Below are positions 29,382 to 46,107 of a DNA stretch of 64,000 nt, one piece after another. Below the pieces are notes generated by a model, which did not search any database, was not told where the DNA came from, and saw only the letters and a list, made by a program, of their open reading frames with translations. Source of the DNA: Candidatus Altiarchaeales archaeon ex4484_96 (lineage in GTDB: Archaea > Altiarchaeota > Altiarchaeia > IMC4 > QMZM01); the NCBI GenBank assembly GCA_002254405.1, contig NJDH01000003.1, forward strand, positions 5,080 to 69,079. Reading direction: 5' to 3'. Each line of letters starts with the position of its first letter. The first letter of the stretch is position 1. The position numbers were made by a program, and so were the translations under genes.

Positions 29382-30326
29382 TCACCATCCTCGCATGCTT
29401 TTTTTCTTGTTTAAGGAGGCGACCATGAAATAAACCAAAACCAGCGCGATTAAGCTGGCAGCATATACTATGATATCGTCTATTTCATTGCTATCTGGTG
29501 TAATATATGTGGTTGAGGTGGTTGTTGTTTCAGCAATACAATCTGGGTCTTCTCCGGGGGCGCAGTCTGGGTCGCATATTGCATCGGCTGTGTAAACGCA
29601 GAATCCGTCTTTTGTCTGGGGGGGGCAGTCTATTCGACAAACCAGGTAATCCTCTCCCTCATCACATAATCCGTTACCACACTCTGTTGTGCAGTCGGGG
29701 TCTTGTCCTATTTGACAATCTGGGTCGCATTTAAGGTCCTCCAATCCGTCGCATAAGCCGTCTTCTAATCCTGATGGGCAGTCTTGTGGGCAGTTATGGT
29801 TGTTTTCCCCCGGCTCGCAGATTGAATCAAAATTGCATTGGAGCGTTATGGCTTCCTTGACATATATCTTGGGGGTGTTGGAGTAATATCTGCTGTCATC
29901 AGCTAAAATTAACTCAGCCTGCGCAACATCATATTCTTTTTCGCGCACCGGCTGGGGTATGGATTCAAATGTGAGGGTGTAGTTGTATTCTCTTTTACTT
30001 AAGGCGTCAACCGATACATTCAAATTTAATGTTCCACCCACCCCGCTTGGTTTAAACACCCCGCATTCTTTAGGTGAGGCGAACGGGGGATAGCCTTCAA
30101 TCAGTACCCCTGAAATAATCTTATCTTCTTTGTTTTCTATGCTAAGGTATACTATAATCTCGTCCCCGCTTCTTATCTCTGTTGCCGAGTAGCTTTTGGT
30201 CAGCTCAACGCTTGCGTTAACAGATAAAATAAACGATATTAATACCAGGATAAATATTATTTTTTTCAACATTTGCTTTCCTCCATGACCCGTACCCAGT
30301 CCACTGTTTGATCGTATTTGAAACAT
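29382..30326 (-). CDS. Secreted Cys-rich surface protein with a signal peptide, beta-rich domain, CDPDC-type Cys repeats, Thr-rich stalk and C-terminal TM anchor
   Basis: Signal peptide MLKKIIFILVLISFILSVNA. Repeats DGLCDGLEDLKCDPDCQIGQDPDCTTECGNGLCDEGEDYLVCRIDCP...CDPDCAPGEDPDC. Stalk ETTTTSTTYITP. C-terminal anchor LIALVLVYFMVASLNKKK. Confidence 0.6.
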   Translation of the reverse strand: MFQIRSNSGLGTGHGGKQMLKKIIFILVLISFILSVNASVELTKSYSATEIRSGDEIIVYLSIENKEDKIISGVLIEGYPPFASPKECGVFKPSGVGGTLNLNVSVDALSKREYNYTLTFESIPQPVREKEYDVAQAELILADDSRYYSNTPKIYVKEAITLQCNFDSICEPGENNHNCPQDCPSGLEDGLCDGLEDLKCDPDCQIGQDPDCTTECGNGLCDEGEDYLVCRIDCPPQTKDGFCVYTADAICDPDCAPGEDPDCIAETTTTSTTYITPDSNEIDDIIVYAASLIALVLVYFMVASLNKKKSMRGW

Positions 30327-45512: not shown

Positions 45513-46107
45513 GTTAACCGCTCAGGCGGCGGTTAGAAGCAGCTGGGAATCAGAACAGGTTCAGGAGGTAGAGTGCTGTGAAATATGCATAGAGATATGG
45601 GGTGAGATGTGCGGCGGATACGCGAATTGCTCGAAAGACTGTGAATCATGCTGCGGGGACTGGTGCAAGGATTTGGATGACGAACCGGTTAAAAAACAGT
45701 GCGAGGCCGTGTGCGAAGGCAGATGCAAAAGCTATTTTGCTGTAAGTGAAATACTTGGTTTGATTTCCACGGTATCCATTATCCTTGCGGCAATAATCTT
45801 TGCACTCCATGCAATAGCATTATTGGTTTCTTTCGGACCCTATGAGCGAAGCGAAGCGAAAAGATCAATTAAGTATGTGATTATTGTCTTGGTCCTGTTT
45901 GCTCTAATATTTCATATAGTCAACATTTTGTATGCACCTTTTAGGGTTCCTGGGGGGGAAACCACCAACCCAACATGTCTAGATTGCTCTAATATACAAA
46001 CATGCAGTGATTATAACATGTATCTGGGTTACCAGGATTGCATATTAAATGTATGTGATGTTCACGATACCTGTTATGTGGATAAAGACCAACAGTGTGC
46101 GAGCTGA
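45310..46107 (+). CDS. Continuation segment in frame +1 relative to the previous CDS. It has a second PKD repeat, a Cys-rich region (CCEICIEIWGEMCGGYANCSKDCESCCGDWC), a C-terminal hairpin module (FGPYERSEAKRSIKYVIIVLVLF) and a Cys-rich tail
   Basis: There is no ATG before the GTG at 45493. The frame is open from 45310. The PKD copy is identical over 104 nt to the copy in the upstream segment. Confidence 0.45.
   Translation, partial: LSPETSTSVNQKTITIGVGDTAFFDASQSIGTGSFSWDYADGNTATGASPSHSFSSEGTYTVALTFTGLTAQAAVRSSWESEQVQEVECCEICIEIWGEMCGGYANCSKDCESCCGDWCKDLDDEPVKKQCEAVCEGRCKSYFAVSEILGLISTVSIILAAIIFALHAIALLVSFGPYERSEAKRSIKYVIIVLVLFALIFHIVNILYAPFRVPGGETTNPTCLDCSNIQTCSDYNMYLGYQDCILNVCDVHDTCYVDKDQQCAS

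What the first reader, a model, noticed from the sequence alone, without database searches (positions are those of the whole stretch)
29382..46107. Accessory-like island: one conserved hairpin module fused to secreted Cys-rich/PKD ectodomains and to five paralogous polytopic proteins. It may be a novel surface-filament or T4SS/Ced-like apparatus
At least 7 ORFs in this 16.7-kb stretch carry the same module as the 12-copy repeat genes at the left edge. The module is a hydrophobic helix, an S-P-x-x-R-x-x-A-K/R loop, then a hydrophobic helix. Examples of the loop:
- TDPGIKNQGKH in the 965-aa protein;
- SPVGRFRAKS, SPAGRNKAKS, SRSKAKN, SPVNRAKAKK and SPLGRARAKS in the five paralogs;
- GPYERSEAKRS in the 45310-46107 segment.

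The partners are giant signal-peptide proteins with hundreds of Cys, PKD domains, (GD)n spacers, a degenerate zincin motif and C-terminal TM anchors. The genes form two divergent operons with abutting or overlapping stops and starts.

The composition reads as a cell-surface or host-interaction system built around one pilin-like membrane hairpin. The membrane-pore-like paralogs and pilin-like module are reminiscent of VirB6/VirB2 logic in archaeal Ced/Ted systems. However, no VirB4-like ATPase is present in the window.
Basis: inference. Interest (0 to 1): 0.9.

Follow-up and report, generated by a model that had tools for sequence, protein, structure and literature searches.

The report
Altiarchaeal type IV secretion-like gene cluster
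This stretch of an uncultivated archaeon (Altiarchaeota) encodes the membrane and surface parts of a machine related to bacterial conjugation (type IV secretion) systems: five different copies of the channel/platform protein, plus pilin-like anchors fused to large outward-facing proteins, a layout I found described in no paper.

Summary
Seven ORFs between 29382 and 46107 carry the helix / S-x-S-P-x-x-R-x-x-A-K / helix hairpin of the left-edge repeat genes. That hairpin is the VirB2-type pilin domain (Pfam T4SS_pilin and TrbC/VirB2).

The five polytopic paralogs are VirB6-like:
- A confident model (pLDDT 87) has TrwI/VirB6 of plasmid R388 as its top four Foldseek hits.
- The paralogs' pilin-like hairpin mirrors what has been reported for CedA and VirB6.

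The genome is Candidatus Altiarchaeales ex4484_96. The cluster is not an accessory island. It is syntenic, with the same downstream housekeeping genes, in another Altiarchaeota genome. All eight complete loci keep exactly five tandem paralogs next to a giant Cys-rich protein.

In one relative, the orthologous cluster runs directly into a PrgI/VirB3-like gene and a VirB4 ATPase. In the window's own genome that pair sits on another contig.

Best reading: a chromosomal, domesticated T4SS-derived envelope apparatus, comparable to Ced/Ted and to the Patescibacteria system. Its substrate is unknown.

Two genes are broken in the window, by deletion or misassembly. No searchable paper links Altiarchaeota with VirB4. 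I rate it a new variant of a known kind.

The parts
29382..30326 (-). 314-aa secreted or anchored Cys-rich protein. It has an N-terminal signal-like helix, 17 Cys in CxxxC-type repeats and a C-terminal TM anchor. The likely true start is Met19 at 30272, one base after the stop of the upstream gene.
   Evidence: No Pfam or NCBIfam hit. It belongs to the minus-strand operon by position only.
30266..33163 (-). 965-aa protein, N to C: signal peptide; VirB2-like hairpin (nt 32813-33049, loop STDPGIKNQGKH); (GD)5; zincin-like Cys-rich domain (about nt 31784-32476) with degenerate HELGN (nt 32093-32107); (GD)7; two PKD domains (nt 31214-31726); transglutaminase-like core (nt 30737-30997).
   Evidence: Pfam PKD_4 9e-30, Transglut_core 4.8e-5 (24 bits, cut-off 23), T4SS_pilin 0.014. 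Own HMM 9e-4. Homologs P0285, P0289 and P0293 carry PF18895 in the database's precomputed Pfam annotation and an intact HExxH. P0294 has the same hairpin fused to an SLT lytic transglycosylase. Coordinates.
33164..33228 (.). 65-nt AT-rich spacer between the two divergent operons. Presumed to hold bidirectional promoters.
   Evidence: Coordinates, sequence. Promoter function is inferred and was not tested; the scan tool does not cover archaeal promoters.
33229..38025 (+). 1598-aa giant protein with a signal peptide, 69 Cys and a C-terminal TM anchor. It is the conserved first gene of the plus-strand operon.
   Evidence: No Pfam, NCBIfam or PDB-sequence match. Homologous giants precede the five paralogs in every locus that reaches that far. 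Type-B giants carry VWA and beta-propeller domains.
38027..39232 (+). VirB6-like paralog 1 (401 aa). Hairpin at nt 38321-38554, loop GSPVGRFRAKS.
   Evidence: Family HMM 6e-86. Pilin HMM 7e-4. Ortholog of L010 a419.
39234..40181 (+). VirB6-like paralog 2 (315 aa). Hairpin at nt 39474-39707, loop SSPAGRNKAKS. Identical to OYT27687.1 of Ca. Altiarchaeales ex4484_96.
40186..41367 (+). VirB6-like paralog 3 (393 aa). Hairpin at nt 40471-40704, loop SSLSSRSKAKN.
41364..42440 (+). VirB6-like paralog 4 (358 aa). Hairpin at nt 41619-41852, loop QSPVNRAKAKK. This is the protein that was modelled.
42446..44009 (+). VirB6-like paralog 5, with a roughly 250-aa Cys-containing N-terminal ectodomain. Hairpin at nt 43295-43528, loop SSPLGRARAKS. 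A 128-bp deletion between 43853 and 43854 shifts the frame, so the ORF stops at 43942. The intact form is 563 aa.
44062..44586 (+). 174-aa protein with two TM helices and a C-terminal domain faintly like a bacterial PH domain. It is a conserved member of the cluster.
   Evidence: Orthologs at the same position in L004, L007, L009 and L010, 37-39% identical. bPH_3 E 0.011, below cut-off. Role unknown.
44550..46229 (+). One gene broken in the window. N to C: signal peptide; Cys-rich N-domain; two PKD copies (direct repeat 45168-45319 / 45361-45512); Cys-rich segment; VirB2-like hairpin (nt 45724-45960, loop FGPYERSEAKRS); Cys-rich tail. It is interrupted near 45318 and again near 46105.
   Evidence: Pfam T4SS_pilin 1.1e-4. 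NCBIfam Mbov_0395 pilin-like 1.3e-5. Intact 969-aa ortholog in L004. Ortholog a283 in L010 has PF18895 at 5e-14.
2..4168 (+). Outside the finding but part of the same system. Two tandem-repeat VirB2-like pilin genes: the 3' part of a 617-aa gene with at least 5 hairpins, and a 1059-aa gene with 10 hairpins.

Best explanation
The region encodes the membrane-platform and surface modules of a chromosomal, vertically inherited, T4SS-derived envelope apparatus of Altiarchaeota.

Proposed mechanism:
- The five VirB6-like paralogs insert in the cytoplasmic membrane. Together they form the central platform or protochannel, the role played by the VirB6 pentamer in R388 and by DotA in Dot/Icm.
- VirB2-like hairpin proteins sit in the membrane with the basic S-P-x-x-R-x-x-A-K loop on the cytoplasmic side and both ends outside. 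These include the tandem-repeat pilin genes at the left edge, the 965-aa hydrolase/PKD protein and the PKD/Cys-rich protein at 44550-46229.
- They are either polymerised on that platform or docked to it. This places PKD, zincin-like, transglutaminase-like and, in relatives, amidase and lytic-transglycosylase domains on the cell surface.
- The giant Cys-rich, C-terminally anchored protein is adhesin-like. Its relatives carry VWA domains.
- Energy comes from a PrgI/VirB3-like plus VirB4 pair that this genome encodes at another locus.

Shown: the domain identities, the fold match, the conservation of the five-paralog set and the genomic links.
Inferred: the assembly model, the membrane topology, and the output. 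I consider cell-to-cell contact with DNA or protein transfer the most likely output, by analogy with Ced/Ted and the Patescibacteria system.
For: - The hairpin is a VirB2/T4SS pilin domain: Pfam on the left-edge genes; 24 of 40 paralog-family members hit PF18895; hhalign 89.8%, E 1.8e-6; reciprocal HMM hits.
- A pilin-like N-terminal region is reported for CedA and VirB6 (PMC9905601). In the paralogs the hairpin follows a signal-like helix and about 60 further residues.
- Link to the ATPase. In L010 the orthologs of the giant protein, paralogs 1-5, the 174-aa protein and the Cys-rich pilin are followed directly by PrgI-like (2.8e-5) and VirB4-like genes (P-loop_TraG 6e-25, AAA_10 1.4e-13).
- The same MAG as the window has PrgI (2.8e-7, above cut-off) plus VirB4.
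- PrgI and VirB4 are adjacent in all six altiarchaeal contigs that cover the region upstream of VirB4. Stand-alone pilins lie upstream in two of them.
- Exactly five tandem paralogs occur in all eight complete loci. Positional orthology is one-to-one within two divergent locus types.
- VirB6 and DotA are pentamers, and 'extended VirB6' proteins are known (PMC12857230). Family members reach 2012 aa.
- Hydrolase domains are fused to the hairpin in relatives: SLT in P0294, HExxH zincin in P0285, P0289 and P0293. The divergent neighbour in L004 carries Amidase_3; only its C-terminal part is in the locus, so I could not check it for a hairpin.
Against: - VirB3 and VirB4 are adjacent to the cluster in only 1 of 8 complete loci. 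In this genome the link depends on correct binning of a MAG.
- No VirD4 coupling protein, relaxase, VirB8 or VirB5 homolog was seen in any locus, so a transfer substrate is unsupported.
- Large ectodomains on both sides of a pilin hairpin may be sterically incompatible with a VirB2-type helical filament.
- Two genes of the cluster are disrupted in the window, so this particular copy may be partly non-functional.
Confidence: 0.7

Rival explanations
1. A lineage-specific surface-display or adhesion complex that shares ancestry with VirB2/VirB6 but no longer works as a secretion or pilus machine. The hairpin would serve only as a two-helix membrane anchor for ectoenzymes and adhesins. The five paralogs would form a static membrane scaffold independent of VirB4.
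For: - VirB3/VirB4 are unlinked from the cluster in 7 of 8 complete loci.
- Hairpins occur in the middle of proteins with bulky domains on both sides, which fits an anchor better than a filament subunit.
- The giant proteins have their own C-terminal TM anchors, and VWA domains in relatives.
- No coupling protein or relaxase was seen.
Against: - Direct contiguity with PrgI and VirB4 in L010.
- VirB4 homologs were found in more than 100 protein clusters (at 90% identity); every named one down to about 59% identity is altiarchaeal.
- Canonical short pilins and pilin repeats in the same genomes still score strongly for VirB2 families.
- The strict conservation of five paralogs matches the pentameric stoichiometry of VirB6 in working T4SSs.
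Confidence: 0.2
2. An integrated conjugative element or other mobile accessory island carrying its own mating-pair-formation genes.
For: - The VirB2- and VirB6-like content is typical of conjugative elements.
- G+C rises slightly, to 0.47-0.50 at 28-32 kb against a window average of about 0.44.
Against: - The same gene order, with the same downstream genes (AI-2E transporter, phosphoglucomutase), is found in a genome whose proteins are only about 65-71% identical.
- No integrase, relaxase or coupling protein appears among the ORFs of the window. No tRNA is present. I did not search for flanking direct repeats.
- No VirB4 lies inside the putative element.
- The family is confined to Altiarchaeota among all named hits.
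Confidence: 0.03
3. The five paralogs are permeases of an unrecognised transporter family, and the hairpin similarity to pilins is a compositional coincidence of TM helices.
For: - The proteins are polytopic and all-helical, with no Pfam family covering the C-terminal part.
- Tandem paralogs also occur in transporter operons.
Against: - No transporter family was hit in Pfam, NCBIfam or PDB.
- None of the true transporters in the window is hit by the pilin HMM.
- The polar loop residues, not only the hydrophobic helices, are conserved.
- The structural hits are specific to VirB6.
- No ATPase or substrate-binding protein is in the operon.
Confidence: 0.03
4. The cluster is the export and anchoring machinery for hami, the grappling-hook appendages of Altiarchaeota.
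For: - Hami are 8-nm filaments that cross both membranes, with a possible cytoplasmic-side anchoring structure. Their assembly machinery is unknown (PMC4460559).
- This is a conserved, Altiarchaeota-restricted envelope cluster.
Against: - The hamus subunit is a 97-kDa S-layer-like protein unrelated to pilins, and that paper proposes Sec-dependent export.
- No hamus-like gene was recognised here.
- From my own recollection, not tested here: the marine and hydrothermal Altiarchaeales clade to which ex4484 genomes belong is reported to lack hamus genes.
Confidence: 0.03

Closest known systems
Archaeal Ced (Sulfolobales) and Ted (Thermoproteales) DNA-import systems (PMC9905601)
   Same: - Chromosomal, domesticated T4SS derivatives in archaea.
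- Built from a VirB2-like pilin, a VirB6-like polytopic protein with a pilin-like region, and a VirB4-like ATPase.
- No relaxase or coupling protein in the locus.
   Different: - No detectable sequence similarity was tested or seen to CedA or TedA.
- Here there are five VirB6-like paralogs instead of one.
- There are pilin hairpins fused to large ectodomains, tandem-repeat pilin genes and giant Cys-rich proteins.
- A PrgI/VirB3-like gene precedes VirB4.
- The host is a different phylum, reported to have a double membrane.
- DNA import has not been shown.
Patescibacteria (CPR) T4SS (PMC12102498; reviewed in PMC12857230)
   Same: - Same Pfam pilin family (PF18895).
- Chromosomal and lineage-wide rather than plasmid-borne.
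- VirB3/PrgI, VirB4 and VirB6 components of the monoderm (MPF-FATA-like) type.
- Multiple divergent VirB2-like pilins per genome.
   Different: - The Patescibacteria locus has VirB1, VirB8 and VirD4 homologs, and its VirB6 is detected by sequence profiles (MPF-FATA PrgH, MPF-T VirB6).
- Here the VirB6-like proteins are five, recognisable only by fold, and VirD4 and VirB8 were not found.
- Pilin-ectodomain fusions and 10-unit pilin repeat proteins are not described there.
Rickettsiales vir homolog (rvh) T4SS (PMC2653234)
   Same: - Five VirB6 paralogs (RvhB6a-e), several of them 'extended'.
- T4SS genes scattered over several chromosomal islets.
- No VirB5.
- Vertically inherited.
   Different: - Bacterial, diderm P-type system with VirB7-11 and VirD4.
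- The RvhB6 proteins match the TrbL/VirB6 Pfam family.
- No pilin-ectodomain fusions.
TrwI/VirB6 of plasmid R388 and DotA of the Legionella Dot/Icm system (PDB 7o3v, 8rtd, 9ngy)
   Same: - Best structural matches of paralog 4.
- Both act as central pentamers, which matches the invariant count of five paralogs.
   Different: - Homo-pentamers of one gene product.
- About 10% sequence identity.
- They pair with a VirB5-type pentamer (TrwJ, IcmX), which has no recognised counterpart here.

Membership tests
VirB2 / T4SS_pilin (PF18895, PF04956) | Profile match to the pilin family above the curated threshold | tested here: inconclusive
   The island proteins score below the cut-off of 26.6 bits: 23.4, 22.6, 16.0 and 15.9 bits. 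The left-edge genes (191 and 41 bits), the ortholog a283 (52.5 bits) and homologs of the 965-aa protein are above it. hhalign of the family against pilin repeats gives 89.8%, E 1.8e-6.
VirB2 / T4SS_pilin (PF18895, PF04956) | Two hydrophobic helices joined by a short basic loop | tested here: met
   Hydropathy and sequence. The loop S-x-S-P-x-x-R-x-x-A-K is at least 90% conserved in the family.
VirB2 / T4SS_pilin (PF18895, PF04956) | Small stand-alone subunit (about 70-130 aa after processing) that polymerises into a pilus | tested here: not met
   In the island the hairpin is always embedded in larger proteins of 315 to 965 aa. Polymerisation cannot be tested here. I therefore call these 'VirB2-like hairpin domains', not pilins.
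VirB6 / TrbL | Sequence-profile match to PF04610 or to a solved VirB6 | tested here: not met
   1 of 40 members at E 0.65. No PDB sequence hit.
VirB6 / TrbL | Fold similarity to solved VirB6 proteins | tested here: met
VirB6 / TrbL | Polytopic protein with 4-6 or more hydrophobic helices; N-terminal part related to VirB2 | tested here: met
   The VirB2-relatedness criterion comes from PMC9905601.
VirB6 / TrbL | Pentameric assembly at the centre of the machine | not testable with these tools
   Only single-chain prediction is available. Five conserved paralogs are suggestive only.
Type IV secretion system (as a system) | VirB4-family ATPase | tested here: met
   Not in the window. Present in the same MAG (P0267, B6U97_03735). 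Contiguous with the orthologous cluster in L010. Membership in this genome depends on correct binning.
Type IV secretion system (as a system) | VirB3/PrgI-like partner of VirB4 | tested here: met
   PF12666 E 2.8e-7, 31.4 bits against a cut-off of 27, for L021:235-1113. Adjacent to VirB4 in six contigs.
Type IV secretion system (as a system) | Coupling protein (VirD4) and relaxase, which define conjugative systems | tested here: inconclusive
   None in the window or in the roughly 20 fetched loci. Whole genomes could not be searched.
Ced / Ted systems | Homology of components to CedA/CedA1/CedB or TedA/TedB/TedC | not tested
   No Ced or Ted sequences were available to the tools. The resemblance is architectural only.
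Integrative conjugative element | Integrase, att repeats or tRNA target, and patchy distribution | tested here: not met
   No integrase among the ORFs and no tRNA. att-type flanking repeats were not searched for. Synteny with conserved downstream genes.

The most novel reading that the evidence does not exclude
The five anciently diverged VirB6-like paralogs assemble one copy each into a hetero-pentameric stalk or protochannel. That would be the first case where the five-fold symmetry of the T4SS centre is hard-wired as five genes. The VirB2-like hairpin has been turned into a general 'mounting' module. Through it the machine loads enzymes (zincin, transglutaminase-like, amidase, lytic transglycosylase) and adhesins onto a pilus-like filament or its tip. 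Because several of these domains act on bacterial peptidoglycan, the apparatus would be an archaeal contact-dependent device aimed at bacterial neighbours, for DNA or nutrient acquisition or for killing.
Probability: 0.2. Interest if true: 0.9.

Novelty: new variant of a known kind. Interest (0 to 1): 0.72.

Why it matters
- Ced and Ted, both in Thermoproteota, are the chromosomal T4SS-derived systems of archaea described in the papers read here. This would add another, lineage-wide one in a phylum with an unusual double-membrane envelope, biofilm life and known epibionts.
- The invariant set of five VirB6-like genes gives a direct, testable handle on the proposed pentameric VirB6 platform. 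It also offers a parallel to the unexplained five RvhB6 paralogs of Rickettsia.
- VirB2-like hairpins fused to hydrolases, PKD domains and Cys-rich domains, together with 10-unit pilin repeat proteins, would expand what a 'conjugative pilin' can be.
- About 20 kb of 'hypothetical proteins' conserved across Altiarchaeota receives a working annotation.

Tried and rejected
- Pfam and NCBIfam on all island proteins gave no family for the paralogs' C-terminal part, the 1598-aa giant, or the 314-aa and 174-aa proteins.
- A profile search of the paralog family against PDB sequences gave nothing.
- PDB sequence searches with the 262-aa, 965-aa and 1598-aa proteins returned only PKD matches.
- By eye, the N-domain of the 44550 gene has an S-x-H...D / H-x-H pattern like LAS (M15) peptidases. 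No tool supported this, so I make no claim.
- The first structure model, from 13 sequences, was poor (pLDDT 66) and was replaced by a 40-sequence model.
- The genome scan with the 40-sequence alignment failed for lack of a conserved stretch. It was rerun with 13 sequences, which limits the result to closer relatives.
- The afdb50 fold library was unavailable.
- R388 was not in the plasmid collection, so I could not build a TrwI profile for hhalign.
- The exact-sequence look-up of the MAG's VirB4 contig failed. It was replaced by a metagenome scan that found two 100%-identical fragments.
- Literature searches: no searchable paper contains both 'Altiarchae' and 'VirB4', and the only one containing 'Altiarchae' and 'T4SS' is a census of archaeal type IV pili. 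Searches for PF18895 and for DPANN with VirB4 also turned up nothing on Altiarchaeota.
- The mobile-element, transporter and hami readings were considered and rejected, as set out under the rival explanations.
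Full report
ORGANISM AND CONTEXT

The window is archaeal. It encodes A-type ATPase subunit I, Mrp antiporter subunits, the RFC small subunit, IleRS, AspRS and RtcB.

Paralog 2 is 100% identical to OYT27687.1 (locus tag B6U97_00805) of Candidatus Altiarchaeales archaeon ex4484_96. All named relatives of the island's proteins are Altiarchaeota.

There is no tRNA in the window, and no integrase-like ORF. G+C in the island is 0.42-0.50 against about 0.44 overall.

THE MODULE

The left-edge genes contain 10 copies (989-4168) and 2 copies (122-949) of an approximately 80-aa unit. The second is the 3' end of a 617-aa gene, seen whole in L003. These genes match Pfam T4SS_pilin (PF18895) at 3e-57 and 1.9e-10, and TrbC/VirB2 (PF04956) at 1.6e-19.

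It did not hit any of the many other membrane proteins present.

- Paralog 5 was missed by that HMM. It is a clear family member and its orthologs are hit.
- At family level, 24 of 40 members match PF18895.
- A profile-profile comparison aligns paralog residues 86-165 with the whole pilin unit (probability 89.8%, E 1.8e-6).
- The polar loop residues are nearly invariant at 22% mean identity.

THE FIVE PARALOGS

The paralogs are 25-34% identical to one another. They have 0-1 Cys each, apart from the ectodomain of paralog 5. No Pfam, NCBIfam or PDB sequence family covers their C-terminal part.

A profile search of 1.84 billion representative proteins found 527 members (140 at E <= 1e-30). Some have C-terminal extensions that bring them to 2012 aa.

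With 40 diverse sequences, AlphaFold2 gave an all-helical model with pLDDT 87.3 and pTM 0.73.

- Foldseek against the PDB put four TrwI/VirB6 chains of the R388 T4SS stalk at ranks 1-4. Probability was 1.00, E about 0.02, and target-normalised TM 0.47-0.53 over about 265 columns. Two more TrwI chains followed at probability 0.96 and 0.90; no other hit exceeded 0.41.
- The earlier low-confidence model had already returned TrwI.

[quoted passage not shown] In the paralogs the pilin-like hairpin sits in the N-terminal half, after a signal-like helix and about 60 further residues, or after a roughly 250-aa ectodomain in paralog 5.

I therefore call them VirB6-like on fold and architecture. I note that the sequence-profile criterion is not met.

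LINK TO AN ATPase

The window has no VirB4. In contig DAOVSE010000013 of Ca. Altiarchaeota CSMAG_1619 (L010), the following occur in this order:
- a giant Cys-rich protein;
- five paralogs that are the reciprocal best matches of window paralogs 1-5, in order;
- an ortholog of the 174-aa protein;
- a Cys-rich protein with a strong T4SS_pilin domain (5e-14);
- a PrgI/VirB3-like protein (2.8e-5);
- a 761-aa VirB4-like ATPase (P-loop_TraG 6e-25, AAA_10 1.4e-13, DUF87 2.4e-10).

A 134-aa stand-alone pilin lies upstream.

The 120 best VirB4 hits listed (protein clusters at 90% identity) are 39-100% identical to the L010 protein. Every named hit down to about 59% identity is altiarchaeal. One of the hits is B6U97_03735 from the same MAG as the window.

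Two JGI contigs 100% identical to that protein (L021 and L020) show PrgI (E 2.8e-7, above the Pfam cut-off) directly upstream of VirB4. Downstream lie an SPFH protein and a protein homologous to the Mrr-nuclease/PAP2 protein found next to VirB4 in L017 and L022. PrgI and VirB4 are adjacent in all six contigs that cover that position.

CONSERVATION

In GCA_034659295.1 (L004) the gene order is the same: a 1549-aa giant, five paralogs, a 174-aa protein and a 969-aa PKD/pilin-hairpin protein. The AI-2E transporter and phosphoglucomutase follow, as in the window, after one extra 179-aa ORF. The paralogs are 65-71% identical. This rules out an accessory island.

All eight complete loci have exactly five tandem paralogs. 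Two locus types exist:
- type A: the window, L004, L007, L009 and L010;
- type B: L011, L012 and L014.

Positional orthology is one-to-one within each type among the loci compared (L007 was not included). One MAG, B80_G16, has both types. Type-B giants carry VWA and beta-propeller domains, which are adhesin-like.

VirB6 and DotA are pentamers (PMC12857230). Rickettsia has five tandem VirB6 paralogs and scattered T4SS genes (PMC2653234).

The inference that the five paralogs form one hetero-pentamer is mine and is untested.

THE ECTODOMAIN PARTNERS

The 965-aa protein is built, N to C, of a signal peptide, hairpin, (GD)5, an unassigned domain with the motif HELGN, (GD)7, two PKD domains and a transglutaminase-like core.

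Homologs of the unassigned domain have an intact HExxH followed by G/K-L-x-D-E-Y. Several carry PF18895 hairpins. One of them (P0294) has the same hairpin as the 965-aa protein, placed between PKD domains and a C-terminal SLT lytic transglycosylase. The divergent neighbour in L004 carries Amidase_3 plus PKD.

The hairpin is thus repeatedly combined with hydrolase-type ectodomains. Their substrates are unknown. A VirB1-like envelope-remodelling role, or action on neighbouring bacteria, are inferences.

STATE OF THE GENES IN THE WINDOW

- Paralog 5 has a 128-bp deletion relative to contig L001, which comes from another sample and whose paralog-4 gene encodes an identical protein. The intact protein is 563 aa.
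- The gene at 44550-46229 lacks about 80 nt between its two PKD copies relative to L001 and L004.
- That gene changes frame again near 46105. It also lacks the roughly 400-aa C-terminal part of the L004 ortholog.
- L007 shows a similar split.

Whether these are real variants or assembly errors at repeats cannot be decided here.

MECHANISM AND NOVELTY

The best-supported model is a domesticated T4SS-derived apparatus. VirB4/PrgI form the motor, five VirB6-like proteins form the platform, and VirB2-like hairpin proteins and giant adhesin-like proteins form the exposed parts.

The closest known systems are Ced/Ted, the Patescibacteria T4SS and the Rickettsiales rvh system. This one differs from all three in:
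- the five-gene VirB6 set in an archaeon;
- the hairpin-ectodomain fusions;
- the pilin repeat proteins;
- the giant Cys-rich partner.

No paper in the searchable library contains both 'Altiarchae' and 'VirB4', and the only one containing 'Altiarchae' and 'T4SS' is a census of archaeal type IV pili. Source annotations (NCBI, JGI) already label some of the ATPases as VirB4 or TraC. All named cluster-protein homologs seen here are labelled 'hypothetical protein'.

I rate it a new variant of a known kind, with interest 0.72.

Noticed in passing
window 2-949 and 989-4168; L003:5245-7098: Two adjacent genes encode tandem VirB2-like pilin units in single polypeptides: at least 5 units in a 617-aa protein and 10 units in a 1059-aa protein. 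Each unit starts with a conserved Cys. It is open whether they are cleaved into single pilins or remain 20-helix membrane proteins. I found no description of such pilin repeat proteins.
   Followed up: partly
window 43853/43854: A 128-bp deletion in paralog 5 relative to metagenome contig L001 (whose paralog-4 gene encodes an identical protein). It shifts the frame and truncates the protein to 498 aa instead of 563.
   Followed up: yes
window 45300-45330 and 46100-46232: The PKD/pilin-hairpin gene is interrupted twice: about 80 nt are missing between the two 86%-identical PKD repeats, and the frame changes just before a conserved CxxYGxASCTMNPC segment. It also lacks the C-terminal domain of its 969-aa ortholog. 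This is either a pseudogene or misassembly. The ortholog in L007 is split as well.
   Followed up: partly
L020:2635-4470; L017:3458-5278; L022:1498-3330: A roughly 610-aa protein lies next to VirB4 in three altiarchaeal contigs, including the window's own organism. In L017 and L022 it has an N-terminal Mrr-type restriction-endonuclease domain and a C-terminal PAP2 membrane domain; the L020 copy is assigned by 35% identity over about 600 aa and was not itself scanned. It is a possible DNA-handling partner of the machine.
   Followed up: partly
L009 and L012 (same MAG, B80_G16); L011 and L013 (MAG126): Some Altiarchaeota genomes carry two separate five-paralog loci of different types (A and B), each with its own giant protein. 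This suggests two parallel machines.
   Followed up: partly
window 32093-32107: The zincin-like domain of the 965-aa protein has HELGN where homologs have HELGH or HELSH. The second zinc-binding His is lost, so the domain is probably catalytically inactive in this organism.
   Followed up: yes
P0294 (metagenome protein, 650 aa): A hairpin nearly identical to that of the 965-aa protein is fused to PKD domains and a C-terminal SLT lytic transglycosylase. This amounts to a VirB1-like domain on a VirB2-like anchor in an archaeal lineage not known to make peptidoglycan.
   Followed up: no
window 44062-44586: The conserved 174-aa protein has two TM helices and a faint bacterial-PH-like domain. It overlaps the next gene by 37 nt and is present in all type-A loci. 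Its role is unknown.
   Followed up: partly
window 44640-45050 (N-domain of the 44550 gene): A Cys-rich domain with an S-C-H-Y-G-G...A-V-D ... H-I-H pattern resembles LAS/M15 zinc peptidases by eye. No profile or PDB search supported it.
   Followed up: partly
window 30266-30326: The 314-aa ORF overlaps the stop of the 965-aa gene only if it starts at its first ATG. Met19 at 30272, followed by a signal-peptide-like helix, is the more likely start and leaves a 1-nt gap.
   Followed up: no
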